Below, piece by piece: positions 1-4,279 of a stretch of DNA of 4,279 nt (position 1 is its first letter; the number at the start of each line of letters is the position of its first letter). This stretch comes from a virus (Duplodnaviria > Heunggongvirae > Uroviricota > Caudoviricetes). Below the pieces are notes generated by a model that was not told the origin of the DNA, ran no database searches, and saw only the letters and a program-made list of their open reading frames with translations. A program made the translations under genes and the position numbers. The stretch lies in the IMG/VR virus record IMGVR_UViG_2740892423_000004. One strand, 5' to 3'.

Positions 1-36
1 GTCGCTGTCGTTTTCAAAATCGGTGGAGCTGCATGA
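1..36 (+). CDS. Possible 3' end of an upstream CDS (5'-truncated by the window edge); product unknown, by position possibly a tail tube or other tail gene
   Basis: Frame 1 is open from base 1 to a TGA at 34-36 (…VAVVFKIGGAA*). The sequence after 36 is AT-rich and looks intergenic. An alternative frame 2 runs to a TAA at 77-79, so frame and end are uncertain. Confidence 0.25.
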   Translation, partial: VAVVFKIGGAA

Positions 37-117
37 CAAAGTCATCGGGCATTATCTGAACATAAAACACTATCAATAAGTTGGAGTCATTACCAAATAA
101 ACATATCGAATTAACTT

Positions 118-124
118 AAGAGGA
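118..124 (+). promoter_or_regulatory. Shine-Dalgarno motif (AAGAGGA) for the chaperone gene
   Basis: GAGGA at 120-124 lies 7 nt upstream of the ATG at 132. Confidence 0.5.
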
Positions 125-131
125 AACAAGA

Positions 132-440
132 ATGAATATTAATGAAATGCTGAAAGCTCTTTCTCCGAAACGCGAATCTCTGACCATCGGTGGATTCACT
201 TTCTATGCTCGCCCTATGTCAGTAAAAGAATTTAACGAACATGTTTTCAATACCGATAAAGATGACCGTGATGAACGTTCTATTCTTCGTTGTATTGAAG
301 ATGAAGACGGTAAACCAGTATTTGAATCTATGGAACAAGTTAAGGCACTGTATACTAACGTCCGCAGTGAATTAATCGGTTTGGTTGCTCAAGCGTCATT
401 GATGCAAGATCCGACAGTAATTGAAAACGAGGTAAAGTAA
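132..440 (+). CDS. Tail assembly chaperone, short form (lambda gpG-like), 102 aa
   Basis: ORF with a good RBS, sitting immediately upstream of the tape measure gene. It is small and acidic, and its last 16 nt overlap a downstream ORF in the -1 frame, which is the conserved G/GT arrangement. Function is assigned from synteny and architecture, not verified homology. Confidence 0.7.
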   Translation: MNINEMLKALSPKRESLTIGGFTFYARPMSVKEFNEHVFNTDKDDRDERSILRCIEDEDGKPVFESMEQVKALYTNVRSELIGLVAQASLMQDPTVIENEVK

Positions 441-469
441 ACCCGCTTCTGAATTTCTATTTTCGGCAA

Positions 470-811
470 ATGATGCGATCGGGGCTTAGTAAAGATGAAA
501 TGGATAATATGCCAATCACTCTGTTTTGGAAATTATACATTTTCGACACCTACTTAGAACCACAAAGCCCCGCGTTTCATGATATGCAGAATGCGATGTT
601 GCAATATTCCATGTATATGACGTCGCAAGGAATGACACGCGAAACTGCACGCAAACTCAAGCCTAGCCAATTCCAATTAATTAGAGAAGAAAAACTCTTT
701 AAAACTAAAGAAGAACTGGAAGAAATTGCACGCAAGAAAGAAGAAGAACGTAAAGCGGCAATGCTGAACATGTTTGATCCATCTTTGCTTGAGAAACTCA
801 GAAGCGGTTAA
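470..811 (+). CDS. Tail assembly chaperone frameshift extension (lambda gpT-like segment); probably made only as a -1 frameshift fusion with 132-440 (about 226 aa)
   Basis: This ORF is in the -1 frame relative to 132-440. Its frame is open from 425 (upstream stop TGA at 422-424), overlapping the end of the upstream ORF. No convincing Shine-Dalgarno precedes the ATGs at 470, 473 or 500. It ends 11 nt before the tape measure start. The charged C-terminal part is consistent with a tape-measure-binding T domain. Confidence 0.6.
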   Translation: MMRSGLSKDEMDNMPITLFWKLYIFDTYLEPQSPAFHDMQNAMLQYSMYMTSQGMTRETARKLKPSQFQLIREEKLFKTKEELEEIARKKEEERKAAMLNMFDPSLLEKLRSG

Positions 812-816
812 AGGGG
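811..816 (+). promoter_or_regulatory. Shine-Dalgarno motif (AAGGGG) for the tape measure gene
   Basis: AAGGGG at 811-816 lies 6 nt upstream of the ATG at 823 and overlaps the stop codon of the preceding ORF. Confidence 0.5.
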
Positions 817-822
817 TAATTT

Positions 823-3252
823 ATGACAAAACATATAGTAACAATAGAAGGGGATAATAAAGGTCTAAGGAGAAGTACCAATGAAGCCGCCGACCTTCTC
901 GATAGTTTGTCTGAAAAGGCAAGTAATATTGATTTTGGTGGTGGCTTATCTGGTCTGACTGGATCTCTTCGTGGGATCGCTGGCTCTGCTGGTTTGGCTG
1001 CTGGTGGTATCGGCTTAGTTGCGACCGCAGTGGTTGCAGCCGCTAAAGCTGGCGCGGAATACGTTAAACAATATTCAGAAGTATCTAAGGCGACCGGACT
1101 CTCGATTGAATCCCTTCAAAGACTGGAAAAGGAATTTTCTGGTACTGGCCTAACAGTTGAAAAATTCGGTGATATCAACAAAGACACCTTAGATAAGATG
1201 GGTGATGCATGGGCTAACGGTGGTGGTATTGCTGATGACTTAGAATCGGTTGGTCTTAAGTTAGAAAACTATGCTCACTTCATGACAGATCCGCAAGGTG
1301 GTATGAAAGCGGCGATCCAAGTGTTCTATGACATGAAGAAAGCCGGAAAATCAATGGCTGAAATCAAGTTCATGATGGAATCTTTAGCCAGTGATTCAAG
1401 CCATATGACCAGCCAGCTTGAGAAATATAATAGTGCTCAAGAGGCGATGATCGCTATTCAGAATCAATCTGTTAACGTCACCGAAGAAAACGCTAAAAAA
1501 TATGATAAATTTTCTCAGAATATTAATAAGCTGGAAAATAACCTGAAAGGCGCAGCCATGACCATTACTGGTCCTTTGGTTGATAGCTTAAACTGGTTAT
1601 TTGAATGGTTTAATATTGATTGGGAAAAGAGTTCTCTATTCAGGGCATTAGACCGTCTGAATAAAGAAGGTAAGACCGCAACTGGTGGTATTCTTAACAC
1701 CAACCATAAAGACGCTCAAAAGATTATTGACAAGTACAATAAAGAAAAGCGTTGGAATAATCTAGCAGATTGGGAAAAGGCCGCGATCCGTGGTGCTGGT
1801 GTCGATCCTCGTACTGCTGGCTTTGATGTAGAAGGATTTAAGAAACGTTTTGGTGGGTCTTATAAGAAAAATGGTGCTCTGATTGTCGTAGATGCTGGTG
1901 AACATCTGACACGCAAGGCAGATCCTAACACTGATTTAACTCTACCAAATAAACCAGTAAGACCAGAATCATTGGGTAAATCTGGCAACGAGAAGAAAGC
2001 CGAGGAAGAAGCACGCAAGAAAGCGGAAGAGGCAGCTAAAAAGGCTAAGGAAGCCGCAGAAAAAGCACAGAAAGAACGTGAGGATGCAATCAAGCGTCTG
2101 AATGCACTTGATGTTAAATTGCAAGGGCAAGTTGCAGCGTCTATTGCTTCTCAAAACAAGCAGTTAGAAGCCAGCTTGAAAGATTTGGATACTGCTTTAG
2201 ATCTGGGCTTAATCTCTCAGCAAGACGCAGCCGCGAAACGCCAATCCTTAATCGATCAGAATACTGAAAACGTATACAAGATGATTTTAGGTGCTGATCC
2301 GGTTGATGCTCTGAATGCTTTAACACAATTGCAACAAATCAGGGATAATGAGTTAGAAAGCCATAAACGGTTACTTGATGGTAAGGCTATCTCCTACGAA
2401 GAATATATGCGTCGTGTGAATGATACCGAACAAAGTTATTCGCAGATTGAAGATTCTTTGCATGGAATGGATGGTTTTAAAACCAATCAGTTGACCAATA
2501 GCTTAGACTATCAGGACTCAAATAATCCGTTTGCTAAATTTAATGCAATCGATAAAGAGAAATCGGAAGCCGAACAAGATTATAAAACCGATAAACTCAA
2601 GATTGATGGGATCACCGATCCGGCTAAACGGATGGAAGAATTAGAAAAACTCAATGAAAACCATCAAAAACGAATGGCTGCAATTGAGAAGAAATATGCT
2701 GATGCTCGCCAGTCAATAGCCGATGATATGTACGGCGGTTTTGCTGCTGCAATGACTCTCTTCGGGCAGGAAAACACTAAAGCTATGCAGATGGCTTTCA
2801 ATGCTCATAAAGCATTCTCTATCGGACAAGCGACGGTGAACATGTGGACGGCTGCTACCGATGCATGGAACGATCCGACCAACGTAACCACAGGTCAAAA
2901 AATCGCTGCTGCTGCATTGGCTGTTTCTCAGAACATGGGGAACATCGCAAACATCAAGTCTACTAACGTTAGCGGTATGGCTCATGATGGTATCGATAAT
3001 ATCCCTCGTGAGGGTACATGGTTGCTTGATAAGGGTGAACGAGTAGTTGATCAGCGTACTAACGGTGATTTGAAAGACTTCCTTGCTGCTCAAAAATCAG
3101 GCGGTGGCAACTCTCAGCCGATTGAAGTTAACGCACCTTTGAACATTAACGGCAACGTTAATAGCTCAGACAAGATGGTCATGGATGCTATCAAACGTCA
3201 CGCTAAGTTAGTTGCTCAGGCGGTAGAAGACGCACAACGCCGTAAGATGTAA
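823..3252 (+). CDS. Tail tape measure protein, 809 aa
   Basis: It is the longest ORF and sits directly after the chaperone pair. It has a Gly/Ala-rich hydrophobic segment near the N-terminus (about aa 39-80), long predicted helical charged regions including a KAEE-type low-complexity stretch (about aa 387-425), and a C-terminal region that resembles the conserved C-terminus of lambda-family tape measure proteins as I recall it. Stop is TAA at 3250-3252. Confidence 0.9.
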   Translation: MTKHIVTIEGDNKGLRRSTNEAADLLDSLSEKASNIDFGGGLSGLTGSLRGIAGSAGLAAGGIGLVATAVVAAAKAGAEYVKQYSEVSKATGLSIESLQRLEKEFSGTGLTVEKFGDINKDTLDKMGDAWANGGGIADDLESVGLKLENYAHFMTDPQGGMKAAIQVFYDMKKAGKSMAEIKFMMESLASDSSHMTSQLEKYNSAQEAMIAIQNQSVNVTEENAKKYDKFSQNINKLENNLKGAAMTITGPLVDSLNWLFEWFNIDWEKSSLFRALDRLNKEGKTATGGILNTNHKDAQKIIDKYNKEKRWNNLADWEKAAIRGAGVDPRTAGFDVEGFKKRFGGSYKKNGALIVVDAGEHLTRKADPNTDLTLPNKPVRPESLGKSGNEKKAEEEARKKAEEAAKKAKEAAEKAQKEREDAIKRLNALDVKLQGQVAASIASQNKQLEASLKDLDTALDLGLISQQDAAAKRQSLIDQNTENVYKMILGADPVDALNALTQLQQIRDNELESHKRLLDGKAISYEEYMRRVNDTEQSYSQIEDSLHGMDGFKTNQLTNSLDYQDSNNPFAKFNAIDKEKSEAEQDYKTDKLKIDGITDPAKRMEELEKLNENHQKRMAAIEKKYADARQSIADDMYGGFAAAMTLFGQENTKAMQMAFNAHKAFSIGQATVNMWTAATDAWNDPTNVTTGQKIAAAALAVSQNMGNIANIKSTNVSGMAHDGIDNIPREGTWLLDKGERVVDQRTNGDLKDFLAAQKSGGGNSQPIEVNAPLNINGNVNSSDKMVMDAIKRHAKLVAQAVEDAQRRKM
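1990..2097 (+). repeat. Purine-rich low-complexity coding tract (encodes EKKAEEEARKKAEEAAKKAKEAAEKAQKERED)
   Basis: Runs of GAA/AAG/GCA codons giving a Lys/Glu/Ala-rich, probably coiled-coil segment inside the tape measure gene. Confidence 0.6.
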
Positions 3253-3254
3253 TT

Positions 3255-3302
3255 AAAAGCCCCCATAGTCATAAATAATCATAAAACTATGGGGGCTTTT
3301 CT
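3255..3302 (+). terminator. Candidate intrinsic terminator or mRNA-stabilising hairpin (possibly bidirectional) between the tape measure gene and the next gene
   Basis: Perfect inverted repeat: AAAAGCCCCCATAGT (3255-3269) pairs with ACTATGGGGGCTTTT (3286-3300) around a 16-nt AT-rich loop, followed by TTTTCT. The A-tract before and T-tract after give the same structure on both strands. The right arm contains the GGGGG that would act as the Shine-Dalgarno for the ATG at 3303. Confidence 0.55.
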
Positions 3303-3863
3303 ATGTTCAAATCCAAGAATATTAAAATCACAGATTTTACTCTTAAATCAAAACAGCCTTTCTTCAAGGCGCAATCTATCTCCGGTAAATTTCAACGTCG
3401 CTTTACTGGCATTCATTTTTACGAAGCAGAATTTACCGCGAATTACATGGCTCAGGATATTAACGAAGTAAAAGAATTTGTAGCACGTCACCTTTTTGGT
3501 CGTCCTTTTAGTGTGCCACTGTCTTACTTTTCAAAATATACAGGTGATGTACGCCAGATGGTTACGGCTGCTGCTGGTACTGCTCGCGGTGGGCGTAAGG
3601 TGAGAATCTCCAACTTCACCGGAACACTGAAAGCGGGAACTATCATCCAGTTTGAGAACCACAAGAAAATCTACACGATCACCGAAGATGTGAAATCAGG
3701 TGGCGAAATGAAACTCTTCCCTAATTTGCGTCAGAACGTCCTGGCTGGTGAGGTGATCAAGTATCAGAACGTAGAAGGTGAATTTGTTCTCAAAACGGAA
3801 AATATCGATTGGAAGATCGCCCAGATTGGCAAGATGAAATTCGAATTAGTGGAGAATGTATAA
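3303..3863 (+). CDS. Minor tail / distal tail protein (lambda gpM-position protein), 186 aa
   Basis: ORF directly after the tape measure gene, with GGGGG 7 nt upstream of the ATG. The N-terminal roughly 80 aa show a pattern (…EF.A.Y…E..EFV..H..G.PFS…) that resembles lambda gpM as I recall it. The C-terminal roughly 100 aa is an extra domain of unknown type. Stop is TAA at 3861-3863. Confidence 0.75.
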   Translation: MFKSKNIKITDFTLKSKQPFFKAQSISGKFQRRFTGIHFYEAEFTANYMAQDINEVKEFVARHLFGRPFSVPLSYFSKYTGDVRQMVTAAAGTARGGRKVRISNFTGTLKAGTIIQFENHKKIYTITEDVKSGGEMKLFPNLRQNVLAGEVIKYQNVEGEFVLKTENIDWKIAQIGKMKFELVENV

Positions 3864-4189
3864 TGGCAACTATTCAGGAATCATTCAGCAAACTATGCAC
3901 TAATCTGGACTTCATCGAGGTATACAACGACCAGACAGGTCAGAATGTGTCTAGATTGACTCTACCGCAGCTTTTCTCTACTGGCTCGATGTTTCACATT
4001 ATCGAAGTGATAACAGCGTCAGGGGACGTTCTACGGCTTACAGATGGGTATTTCGATTTGGACTATAACGGTTTTACATATCTCGCAACGGGTGATTTTC
4101 TTCAAATCTCATCGAATACCGAAGAGAAGGAGATCAACAACAACGGGATCAACGTAACTGTTTCTAACGTTCGCGAAGAATACATTTGA
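3863..4189 (+). CDS. Minor tail protein, 108 aa (sits in the lambda gpL position; possibly corresponds only to the N-terminal part of L-family proteins)
   Basis: The ATG at 3863 overlaps the upstream stop (TAATG), and GGAG lies 8 nt upstream. The track ORF 3809-4189 is the same frame, but its start would overlap the upstream gene by 55 nt and has no RBS. Stop is TGA at 4187-4189. The functional call is from synteny plus a weak remembered resemblance. Confidence 0.65.
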   Translation: MATIQESFSKLCTNLDFIEVYNDQTGQNVSRLTLPQLFSTGSMFHIIEVITASGDVLRLTDGYFDLDYNGFTYLATGDFLQISSNTEEKEINNNGINVTVSNVREEYI

Positions 4190-4216
4190 AGTGGTTTACT
4201 GAATTTGGCCACCTGA

Positions 4217-4265
4217 ACAGAGGTGATATGCTCACCTCAGAACAACACAGGTGCCATAATGAAAA
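4217..4265. other. Nested inverted repeats in the spacer between the 108-aa gene and the next gene
   Basis: Inner stem GAGGTGA (4230-4236) pairs with TCACCTC (4242-4248) around a 5-nt loop TATGC. Outer arms CACCTG (4220-4225) and CAGGTG (4258-4263). There is no following T-tract, so it is not a typical intrinsic terminator. Confidence 0.5.
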
Positions 4266-4268
4266 AAA

Positions 4269-4279
4269 GAAATTTCAGC
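4269..4279 (+). CDS. Start of the next CDS (3'-truncated by the window end); product unknown, by position a further tail-tip gene
   Basis: ATG at 4269 (MKKRNFS…) with AGGTG 5 nt upstream. An alternative start is the ATG at 4238 in another frame (MLTSEQHRCHNEKKKFQ…), with AGAGG 4 nt upstream. Too little sequence to decide. Confidence 0.25.

What the first reader, a model, noticed from the sequence alone, without database searches (positions are those of the whole stretch)
425..440. Tail chaperone -1 programmed frameshift confined to a 16-nt overlap, with a non-canonical A-AAG-UAA site
The upstream ORF ends at the TAA at 438-440, and the -1 frame is open only from 425 (TGA at 422-424). Any fusion must therefore form within 425-440. 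There is no classic X-XXY-YYZ heptamer. The best candidate is G-GUA-AAG (431-437), where a lysyl-tRNA on AAG can re-pair on AAA (434-436) directly before the stop codon, a 'shifty stop' arrangement. The predicted fusion is about 226 aa (…ENEVK-VNPLLNFYFRQ-MMRSGLSK…). The downstream ORF has no Shine-Dalgarno, which favours frameshift expression over independent initiation. The G/GT frameshift is conserved in tailed phages, but the exact site here would be unusual.
Basis: partly seen in the sequence, partly recalled or inferred. Interest (0 to 1): 0.5.

Follow-up and report, generated by a model that had tools for sequence, protein, structure and literature searches.

The report
Tail chaperone frameshift at conserved A-AAG
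Two overlapping prophage tail-assembly genes are almost certainly joined by a ribosome slipping back one base on the sequence A-AAG just before the first gene's stop codon. This is a well-known phage trick, here with an imperfect slippery site that 17 related lineages all keep.

Summary
ORF1 (132-440) ends at TAA 438-440. The -1 frame is closed by TGA 422-424 and then open to 811. There is no X_XXY_YYZ heptamer.

ORF1 is a tail assembly chaperone "G": it matches phrog_344, and its predicted fold best matches the HK97 chaperone 2OB9. The -1 ORF is a lambda gpT-like "T" domain (PF06223). The tape measure gene follows.

All 55 intact related loci, plus the window, keep an in-frame NNA_AAG inside the 0/-1 overlap. 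They form 17 clusters below 85% amino-acid identity, one of them from phage DCP80. The codon before AAG varies: GUA, GAA, AAA, UCA or UUA. Three clusters have canonical heptamers at the same place (A_AAA_AAG twice, U_UUA_AAG once).

The 11 codons between the site and the first ATG of T evolve synonymously only in the -1 frame. In some relatives the first ATG lies 26-78 codons downstream. T has no Shine-Dalgarno sequence. So T is made only as a G-T fusion of 226 aa, ...ENEVK-VNPLL...

No stimulatory RNA structure or correctly spaced upstream SD was found. The adjacent stop codon is kept in only 9 of 17 clusters, so "shifty stop" is not the conserved feature.

A_AAG-only sites are already known from IS1222, B. 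subtilis cdd and synthetic constructs. This is a new member of a known kind, sitting in an IS-truncated prophage remnant.

The parts
132..440 (+). Gene G: tail assembly chaperone, 102 aa, with its own Shine-Dalgarno AAGAGGA at 118-124
   Evidence: phrog_344 tail assembly chaperone, E 8.3e-07. PF16459 scores 21.5 bits, below its 28.8-bit cutoff. AlphaFold model has pLDDT 79; its best Foldseek PDB hit is the HK97 tail assembly chaperone 2OB9, prob 1.00, TM 0.54-0.58, E 4e-3. SD duplex energy -6.0 kcal/mol.
422..424 (+). TGA in the -1 frame: the upstream limit of the frameshift window
   Evidence: Read directly from the sequence. The -1 frame is open from -13 relative to the G stop.
431..437 (+). 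Shift site G_GUA_AAG. The conserved core is the A_AAG tetramer at 434-437.
   Evidence: NNA_AAG lies inside the 0/-1 overlap in all 55 intact related loci and the window, across 17 clusters. Three clusters have canonical A_AAA_AAG or U_UUA_AAG at the homologous place: L035/L041, L042 and DCP80.
438..440 (+). UAA stop of G, directly 3' of the shift site
   Evidence: Read directly from the sequence. A stop is adjacent to AAG in 9 of 17 clusters only.
437..469 (+). Bridge: 11 codons in the -1 frame (VNPLLNFYFRQ), upstream of any ATG of the T frame
   Evidence: Codon differences among 8 near relatives are 94 synonymous: 48 non-synonymous in the -1 frame, against 6:127 in the 0 frame and 11:112 in the +1 frame. 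The motif N[PW]xxxF..R..[ML]R.GL is conserved across all clusters.
437..811 (+). T segment: 124 aa in the -1 frame, stop at 809-811, a lambda gpT-like domain made only as a G-T fusion
   Evidence: PF06223 Phage_tail_T scores E 3.2e-4, 21.5 bits in the window (cutoff 25.9). It is matched by 8 of 17 family members, best E 1.9e-6. There is no SD at ATG 470 or 473. The first ATG in the T frame is 26-78 codons after the site in L043, L044, L051, L052, L054 and L055.
823..3252 (+). Tape measure protein gene, 809 aa, the expected neighbour of G/T
   Evidence: phrog_13674 tail length tape measure protein, E 8.8e-64. Annotated as tape measure protein in NZ_CM149869.
3303..3863 (+). Distal tail protein gene (context)
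   Evidence: phrog_1302 distal tail protein, E 1.5e-16.
3863..4189 (+). N-terminal half of the baseplate hub gene, cut by the IS at 4186 (context)
   Evidence: phrog_2048 and PF09931 give weak matches. The intact homologue in L001 (11766-12419) is 217 aa.
1..94 (.). End of an IS1 copy that replaces the DNA upstream of G
   Evidence: 98-99% identity to IS1 in many records. Homology to the intact prophages starts at about position 95.
4186..4279 (.). End of an IS3-family (IS911-like) element
   Evidence: 100% identity to a transposon in phage SEN22 and 92.6% to IS911 in Sf6.

Best explanation
Window 132-811 is the G/GT tail-assembly-chaperone pair of a siphovirus-type E. coli prophage.

Most ribosomes translate G (102 aa) and terminate at UAA 438-440. 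A small fraction slip back one nucleotide while tRNA-Lys (anticodon mnm5s2UUU, the only lysine tRNA of E. coli) is on AAG 435-437. It re-pairs with AAA 434-436, and translation continues in the -1 frame with GUA 437-439. The product is a 226-aa fusion, ...ENEVK-VNPLLNFYFRQMMRSG....

The essential element is the A_AAG tetramer. The preceding GUA codon, read by tRNA-Val, can re-pair only partly on GGU (first and wobble positions). The site therefore behaves as a hexanucleotide or tetramer site rather than a tandem-slippage heptamer.

The slip may happen with tRNA-Lys in the A site, or in the P site while the stop codon waits in the A site. Both routes give the same protein.

By analogy with lambda, the G part binds the tape measure protein and the T part recruits the tube protein.

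Shown here: the anatomy, the family-wide conservation of A_AAG, coding constraint on the bridge in the -1 frame, and the absence of a start signal for T.

Inferred: that slippage really occurs, its rate (probably low, from a fraction of a percent to a few percent), and which ribosomal site is involved.
For: Gene identity and order:
- G and T are TAC/gpT homologues placed next to the tape measure gene. In the intact prophage L002 they sit between the tube gene and the tape measure gene.

Conservation of the site:
- In all 55 intact related loci and the window, T is in the -1 frame, runs 120-135 aa past the G stop, and overlaps G by 16-109 nt.
- All 17 clusters below 85% identity keep an in-frame NNA_AAG in the overlap, although the P-site codon changes (GUA, GAA, AAA, UCA, UUA).
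- In 11 of 17 clusters it is the only Z_ZZN tetramer in the overlap.
- The synonymous-choice probability is 10^-15.6 under naive independence. NNA_AAG is otherwise rare in G ORFs, 5 of 1720 dicodons.
- Canonical A_AAA_AAG (L035/L041, L042) and U_UUA_AAG (phage DCP80) sit at the homologous position.
- L019 carries a 3-nt GTA insertion right after the site that keeps both frames.

T is translated from the site onward, not from its own start:
- Fusion proteins predicted from a slip at A_AAG align collinearly.
- The bridge 437-469 shows 94:48 synonymous to non-synonymous codon differences in the -1 frame, against 6:127 and 11:112 in the other frames.
- The first ATG of the T frame lies 26-78 codons downstream in several relatives.
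- There is no SD before ATG470 or ATG473.

Literature:
- A_AA.G is the most -1-prone tetramer in E. coli, and tetramers are used by 87 IS elements (PMC4066793).
- G_CGA_AAG is used by IS1222 and A_CGA_AAG by cdd. G_GU P-site halves are known from T7 gene 10 (PMC5009743).
Against: - No protein-level evidence exists; everything is comparative.
- No stimulator was found. The downstream RNA folds no better than shuffles (z +1.7 and +0.6). The alignment fold gives -0.76 kcal/mol. Rfam finds nothing. The zone 8-23 nt upstream has no SD-like sequence in the window (+0.4 kcal/mol).
- In reporter constructs, tetramers without a stimulator were barely above background (0.147% against 0.112%, PMC4066793). 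The rate here could be very low.
- GAGGU at 429-433 abuts the site at a spacing that, from my own knowledge of dnaX and prfB work, would not favour -1 shifting.
- The window is an IS-flanked remnant with a truncated hub gene, so this particular copy may not be expressed at all.
- The clusters share ancestry, so the 10^-15.6 figure overstates independence.
Confidence: 0.8

Rival explanations
1. There is no frameshift. T is a separate protein started at ATG470/473, either by reinitiation of ribosomes that terminated at UAA 438-440, or at ATG500/509 as in the RefSeq annotation.
For: PGAP annotates a separate CDS from ATG509 and no slippage. ATG-ATG at 470-475 is conserved in the near clade and lies only 30 nt after the G stop. 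ATG500 has a -5.0 kcal/mol anti-SD match, though it is 15 nt away.
Against: - ATG470 and ATG473 have no SD (-1.1 and -1.7 kcal/mol).
- The 11 codons upstream of ATG470 are under purifying selection in the T frame only.
- Their peptide motif is conserved in all clusters.
- In relatives the first ATG is 26-78 codons further down, inside the conserved domain.
- The invariant A_AAG would be left unexplained.
Confidence: 0.08
2. The -1 shift occurs at the other tetramer in the overlap, A_AAC (425-428, heptamer U_GAA_AAC), giving ...IEN-RGKVNPLL....
For: It is the only other zero-frame Z_ZZN tetramer inside the 16-nt overlap. A shift there avoids the -1 frame TGA, because that codon would only be re-paired in the P site and never decoded.
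Against: A_AA.C was not among the shift-prone tetramers in E. coli (PMC4066793). The motif is present only in the window clade and L024, and absent from the other 15 clusters. P-site GAA to UGA re-pairing is poor.
Confidence: 0.03
3. The frame change is a +5 hop of peptidyl-tRNA-Val from GUA 432-434 to the repeated GUA 437-439 (GUAAA-GUAAA), giving ...ENEV-NPLL....
For: The direct repeat GUAAAGUAAA exists in the window and in L033, L037 and L040. Low-level hops are known from synthetic constructs (Weiss et al. 1987, cited in PMC5009743; the details are from my own knowledge).
Against: The repeat is absent in L039 (GUAAAGAAAA), L047 (GUAAAGGAAA) and in every GAA, AAA, UCA and UUA cluster. A hop needs an empty or slow A site, but AAG is an ordinary sense codon.
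Confidence: 0.02
4. The signal is intact but idle. This copy is a decaying prophage fragment, and nothing is made from it. This is compatible with the best explanation of what the sequence encodes.
For: IS1 replaces everything upstream of position 95. An IS911-like element cuts the hub gene at 4186. No head, tube or tip genes lie in the window. The L010, L032 and L053 copies of the family are visibly damaged.
Against: Positions 98-4185 are 100% identical to an apparently complete tail module in NZ_CM149869, so the insertion events are recent and the genes are undamaged. Outward transcription from IS1 cannot be excluded.
Confidence: 0.5

Closest known systems
Phage lambda G/GT (and HK97) tail assembly chaperone -1 programmed frameshift, site G_GGA_AAG
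   Same: The gene order is the same: tube, G, T, tape measure. G has the HK97 chaperone fold and T matches the lambda gpT family. T is in the -1 frame with a short overlap at the 3' end of G. The A-site half A_AAG is the same. No RNA structure was detected here; that lambda also needs none is from my own knowledge. A low-level shift sets a G:GT ratio of about 30:1 in lambda (PMC5009743).
   Different: The P-site half is G_GU(A), not G_GG(A), so tandem re-pairing is imperfect. In sister clusters (A_GUA, A_GAA, N_UCA) it is essentially impossible. The stop codon here directly follows the site.
NNA_AAG hexanucleotide / Z_ZZN tetramer -1 sites: IS1222 G_CGA_AAG, Bacillus subtilis cdd A_CGA_AAG, synthetic A_AAG constructs
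   Same: These work by single-tRNA slippage of tRNA-Lys from AAG to AAA, with a non-re-pairing 5' codon ending in A. A_AA.G is the best tetramer in E. coli.
   Different: Those cases rely on a stimulator: an upstream SD for cdd (from my own knowledge) and the IS3 pseudoknot in the synthetic constructs. None was found here. The genes involved are different (a transposase and a deaminase).
Phage T7 gene 10A/10B -1 frameshift with a G_GU P-site half
   Same: The P-site half is G_GU. From my own knowledge, it is read by tRNA-Val, which re-pairs on GGU with a middle-position mismatch. It is listed as an intermediate between hexanucleotide and heptanucleotide sites (PMC5009743).
   Different: From my own knowledge, the A-site half in T7 is U_UUC rather than A_AAG, and the product is a capsid protein variant, not a chaperone.
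Shifty-stop frameshifting (prfB +1 at CUU_UGA)
   Same: A stop codon lies in the A site next to a slippery P-site codon (AAG_UAA).
   Different: The direction is -1, not +1. The adjacency is kept in only 9 of 17 related clusters, so it is not the defining feature.

Membership tests
Lambda-type G/GT tail assembly chaperone pair | Two small ORFs lie between the major tail (tube) gene and the tape measure gene | tested here: met
   The tape measure gene starts 12 nt after the T stop. In the intact prophage L002 the tube gene directly precedes G. In the window itself the upstream gene is replaced by IS1.
Lambda-type G/GT tail assembly chaperone pair | The first ORF is a tail assembly chaperone by sequence or fold | tested here: met
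   phrog_344, E 8.3e-07. The best Foldseek PDB hit is the HK97 chaperone 2OB9, prob 1.00, TM 0.54-0.58, E 4e-3. Pfam PF16459 scores 21.5 bits, below its 28.8-bit cutoff.
Lambda-type G/GT tail assembly chaperone pair | The second ORF is homologous to gpT | tested here: inconclusive
   PF06223 scores 21.5 bits in the window protein, below the 25.9-bit cutoff. It is matched by 8 of 17 family members at E<0.01, best 1.9e-6. No solved structure is available for comparison.
Lambda-type G/GT tail assembly chaperone pair | The second ORF is in the -1 frame, overlaps the 3' end of the first, and has no translation start of its own | tested here: met
   frame and overlap; no SD; first ATG up to 78 codons downstream in relatives; bridge under selection in the -1 frame.
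Lambda-type G/GT tail assembly chaperone pair | A canonical X_XXY_YYZ slippery heptamer lies in the overlap | tested here: not met
   The window has G_GUA_AAG. Canonical A_AAA_AAG or U_UUA_AAG is present at the homologous place in only 3 of 17 clusters.
Lambda-type G/GT tail assembly chaperone pair | A G-T fusion protein is produced and required for tail assembly | not testable with these tools
   This needs proteomics or genetics.
Z_ZZN tetramer / NNA_AAG hexanucleotide -1 frameshift sites | In-frame A_AAG from which the -1 frame is open | tested here: met
   Positions 434-437. Conserved in all 17 clusters.
Z_ZZN tetramer / NNA_AAG hexanucleotide -1 frameshift sites | The host decodes AAA and AAG with a single tRNA-Lys (UUU) | not tested
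   This is established knowledge for E. coli (PMC5009743). The hosts of the relatives were not examined.
Z_ZZN tetramer / NNA_AAG hexanucleotide -1 frameshift sites | A flanking stimulator: an SD 10-14 nt upstream or a 3' hairpin or pseudoknot | tested here: not met
   There is no structure beyond shuffles, no conserved structure, and no upstream SD in the window. An SD-like AAGGU with a 12-nt spacing occurs in only some relatives (4 of 17 at or below -5 kcal/mol).
Shifty-stop frameshift sites | A stop codon directly 3' of the slippery codon, conserved as part of the signal | tested here: not met
   It is present in the window (AAG_UAA) but kept in only 9 of 17 clusters.

The most novel reading that the evidence does not exclude
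This chaperone family may run a biologically required -1 frameshift on a bare A_AAG tetramer, with no RNA stimulator and a freely drifting P-site codon. In about half of the lineages, including the window, the adjacent UAA would act as the stimulator by holding tRNA-Lys in the P site with an empty A site. That would be a natural -1 'shifty stop', which would be an uncommon arrangement for phage chaperone genes.
Probability: 0.2. Interest if true: 0.45.

Novelty: new member of a known kind. Interest (0 to 1): 0.3.

Why it matters
The G/GT frameshift sets the ratio of two chaperones that build phage tails of the correct length. Automatic annotation misses it here: RefSeq calls T from ATG509, and homologues of G carry the name "cytochrome".

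The family shows that the only indispensable sequence is A_AAG. The codon in front of it changes freely, and canonical heptamers appear and disappear among relatives.

This is useful for frameshift predictors that look for fixed heptamers. It also offers a natural test bed for how much a stop codon or the P-site codon contributes to tetramer slippage. It does not change current understanding of frameshifting.

Tried and rejected
- Downstream stimulatory RNA: single-sequence folds of 431-530 and 438-490 were no better than shuffles. A 10-sequence alignment fold gave three trivial pairs. Rfam at E<=1 found nothing.
- Upstream SD with dnaX-like spacing: absent in the window, present in 4 of 17 clusters only.
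- GAGGU 429-433 as a stimulator or restart signal: not conserved (UCGGU, GAAGU and AUCAGU in relatives), and no start codon follows it.
- Transcriptional slippage: rejected because the window has only A3 and A4 runs.
- +1 frame: closed at 487-489.
- Close isolated phages: megablast and blastn against the phage collection found only IS ends and a short tape-measure segment. tblastn with the fusion found only DCP80 at 32% identity.
- Plasmids: no match.
- PDB sequence searches with the G and T profiles gave nothing relevant.
- The source of the IS1/G junction was not found in complete E. coli genomes.
- Licznar et al. 2003, which measured NNA_AAG efficiencies, is not held in the library. No published value for GUA_AAG could be cited.

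Full report
**What is in the window**

The 4279-base window holds five co-directional genes:
- ORF1, 132-440 (102 aa).
- A -1 frame ORF open from 425 to 811.
- A tape measure gene, 823-3252 (phrog_13674, E 8.8e-64).
- A distal tail protein gene, 3303-3863.
- The first 108 codons of a baseplate hub gene, 3863-4189.

The first ~94 bases are the end of an IS1 copy. Bases 4186-4279 are the end of an IS911-like element. Positions 98-4185 are 100% identical to a tail module in E. coli HCP5S3_I4 and 96-97% identical to prophages in about 50 other E. coli chromosomes. No plasmid matches, and no isolated phage is a close relative. The window is therefore a recent IS-flanked remnant of a siphovirus-type prophage tail module.

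**Checking the observation**

The zero frame reads ATT GAA AAC GAG GTA AAG TAA, with TAA at 438-440. The -1 frame has TGA at 422-424 and then stays open to the stop at 809-811. There is no X_XXY_YYZ heptamer. The only zero-frame Z_ZZN tetramers in the 16-nt overlap are A_AAC (425-428) and A_AAG (434-437). A slip at A_AAG gives a fusion of 102 + 124 = 226 aa with the junction ...ENEVK-VNPLLNFYFRQMMRSG....

**What the genes are**

ORF1 matches the tail assembly chaperone family phrog_344 (E 8.3e-07) and, below threshold, Pfam Phage_TAC_13. An AlphaFold model built on 29 homologues has pLDDT 79. Its best PDB match is the HK97 tail assembly chaperone 2OB9 (Foldseek prob 1.00, TM 0.54-0.58, E 4e-3).

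The -1 ORF matches lambda Minor tail protein T, PF06223. It scores 21.5 bits in the window protein, below the 25.9-bit cutoff. Eight of 17 family representatives match, with a best E of 1.9e-6.

In the intact prophage of strain PigCaeca_2 the order is tube gene, G, T, tape measure. This is the lambda G/GT arrangement.

**Comparative test of the frameshift**

I collected 57 loci:
- two E. coli chromosomes;
- 52 IMG/VR contigs;
- a Buttiauxella genome;
- a metagenome-assembled genome (MAG);
- phage DCP80.

Two loci have a disrupted G. In the other 55 and the window, the downstream ORF is always in the -1 frame, runs 120-135 aa past the G stop (shorter only in the damaged L010), and overlaps G by 16-109 nt.

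The loci reduce to 48 unique sequences and 17 clusters below 85% amino-acid identity. Every cluster has an in-frame NNA_AAG inside the overlap:

| Site | Clusters |
|---|---|
| G_GUA_AAG | window, L024, L037, L039, L040 |
| A_GUA_AAG | L033, L047 |
| G_GAA_AAG | L036, L043, L044, L048 |
| A_GAA_AAG | L051 |
| A_UCA_AAG, G_UCA_AAG | L054, L056 |
| A_AAA_AAG (canonical) | L035, L042 |
| U_UUA_AAG (canonical) | phage DCP80 |

In 11 of 17 clusters A_AAG is the only tetramer in the overlap.

Given the amino-acid pair and each locus's own codon usage, the joint probability that synonymous choice yields NNA_AAG in all 17 is 10^-15.6. That assumes independence, which shared ancestry weakens. Elsewhere in the G ORFs only 5 of 1720 dicodons are NNA_AAG.

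**T has no start of its own**

Fusion proteins predicted from a slip at A_AAG align collinearly through the junction. The first residues after the junction carry a conserved motif, N[PW]xxxF..R..[ML]R.GL.

Among eight nucleotide-alignable relatives, the 11 codons between the slip site and the first ATG (437-469) differ as follows:

| Frame | Synonymous | Non-synonymous |
|---|---|---|
| -1 (T frame) | 94 | 48 |
| 0 (G frame) | 6 | 127 |
| +1 | 11 | 112 |

In distant relatives the first ATG of the T frame lies 26-29 codons (L043, L044, L054, L055) or 78 codons (L051, L052) after the site, inside the conserved domain.

Anti-SD duplex energies are -6.0 to -8.4 kcal/mol for the starts of G, the tape measure, the distal tail protein and the hub. 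They are only -1.1 and -1.7 for ATG470 and ATG473.

A 3-nt GTA insertion in L019, directly after the site, preserves both frames.

Together these results show that the T frame is translated from the slip site onward and not from an internal start. RefSeq nevertheless annotates T from ATG509 and shows no slippage.

**Mechanism**

The invariant element is the A_AAG tetramer, so the core event is tRNA-Lys moving from AAG to AAA.

The review of Atkins et al. states that Z_ZZN is the minimal -1 site. It notes that G_CGA_AAG is used by IS1222 and A_CGA_AAG occurs in B. subtilis cdd. It adds that efficiency on NNA_AAG depends on the 5' codon, and that G_GU P-site halves are known from T7 gene 10 (PMC5009743).

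Sharma et al. found A_AA.G to be by far the best tetramer in E. coli, at 5.6% with the IS3 pseudoknot. Tetramers without a stimulator were barely above background (0.147% against 0.112%). Among IS1- and IS3-family elements, 87 use tetramers and 403 use heptamers (PMC4066793).

In the window, tRNA-Val on GUA can re-pair on GGU at the first and wobble positions only. In the A_GUA, A_GAA and N_UCA clusters the P-site tRNA cannot re-pair at all. That is an inference from anticodon rules.

The slip could occur with tRNA-Lys in the A site or, in the window, in the P site while UAA occupies the A site. The products are identical.

**Stimulators**

None was found.
- The RNA 3' of the site folds no better than shuffled sequence (z +1.7 and +0.6).
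- An alignment fold of ten relatives gives -0.76 kcal/mol and three trivial pairs.
- Rfam has no match.
- The zone 8-23 nt upstream of the tetramer has no SD-like sequence in the window (+0.4 kcal/mol).
- 4 of 17 clusters reach -5 kcal/mol or lower, against 3% of background windows. An example is UAAGGU 12 nt upstream in L037.
- The GAGGU at 429-433 abuts the site and is not conserved.
- The stop codon directly follows AAG in 9 of 17 clusters only, so the 'shifty stop' may help in the window but is not the conserved feature.

The expected rate is therefore low. Lambda works at a G:GT ratio of about 30:1 (PMC5009743), and an HK97-like chaperone cluster measured 6-7% (PMC3711429). The rate here may well be below those values.

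**Rivals**

- Independent initiation or reinitiation of T is contradicted by the bridge constraint, the missing SD and the late ATGs in relatives.
- A shift at A_AAC (425-428) is unlikely. That tetramer is not shift-prone in E. coli and occurs in only two clusters.
- A +5 hop of tRNA-Val between the two GUA codons of GUAAAGUAAA is not supported, because the repeat is missing in most clusters.
- Transcriptional slippage is excluded by the lack of a long homopolymer.
- Separately, this copy may be silent because IS elements have removed its surroundings. That does not change what the sequence encodes.

**Verdict**

It is a lambda-type G/GT tail chaperone frameshift whose slippery site is a hexanucleotide or tetramer (NNA_AAG) rather than a canonical heptamer.

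Both the system and this class of site are known, and non-canonical sites in chaperone genes are widely noted (PMC10885494). I therefore rate it a new member of a known kind, of modest interest.

The useful extras are threefold. The family-wide evidence pins the site to A_AAG. The P-site codon and the adjacent stop drift among relatives. And current annotation misses the fusion.

Noticed in passing
window 1-94 and 4186-4279: The tail genes are flanked by an IS1 end and an IS911-like (IS3-family) end. The hub gene 3863-4189 is cut to 108 of about 217 codons. No complete E. coli RefSeq genome contains the IS1/G junction, so the source strain is not in that set.
   Followed up: partly
window 132-440 (homologues P0001, P0005, P0006 and others): NCBI and UniRef name the homologues of this tail assembly chaperone 'cytochrome'. 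This looks like a propagated misannotation, because family and fold point to an HK97-type chaperone.
   Followed up: partly
window 509-811; L001 8412-8714; L002 15412-15714: RefSeq/PGAP annotates T as a separate 100-aa protein from ATG509 (WP_001434083.1), with no ribosomal slippage. This drops 24 conserved codons of the T frame.
   Followed up: yes
L057 (phage DCP80, PQ671644.1) 6001-9101: A 141-kb record filed under Straboviridae/Gaprivervirus (T4-like) carries a siphovirus-style G/T/tape-measure block with a canonical U_UUA_AAG site. All its genes are annotated as hypothetical. Either the taxonomy or the assembly looks odd.
   Followed up: no
L037, L038 and L039, about 12 nt 5' of A_AAG: An SD-like (U)AAGGU lies at dnaX-like spacing upstream of the tetramer in some Salmonella-type relatives. 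Across the family, 4 of 17 clusters score -5 kcal/mol or lower against 3% of background windows. This may be a lineage-specific stimulator. It is absent in the window.
   Followed up: partly
L019 3304-3312: A 3-nt GTA duplication right after the slip site (AAG TAG TAA AC) adds one Val to the fusion and keeps both reading frames and the site.
   Followed up: no
L001 3176-7992 compared with L002 14482-14952: The region upstream of G is mosaic. One prophage has a long tail-fibre gene, a small tail protein gene and a gp38-like adhesin gene before G. Another has the tube gene directly before G.
   Followed up: no
L002 6383-6787 and 27209-30564: The related prophage in strain PigCaeca_2 is inserted in ycdX, which is split into two partial genes. 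It carries a large serine-type 'recombinase family protein' at its end.
   Followed up: no
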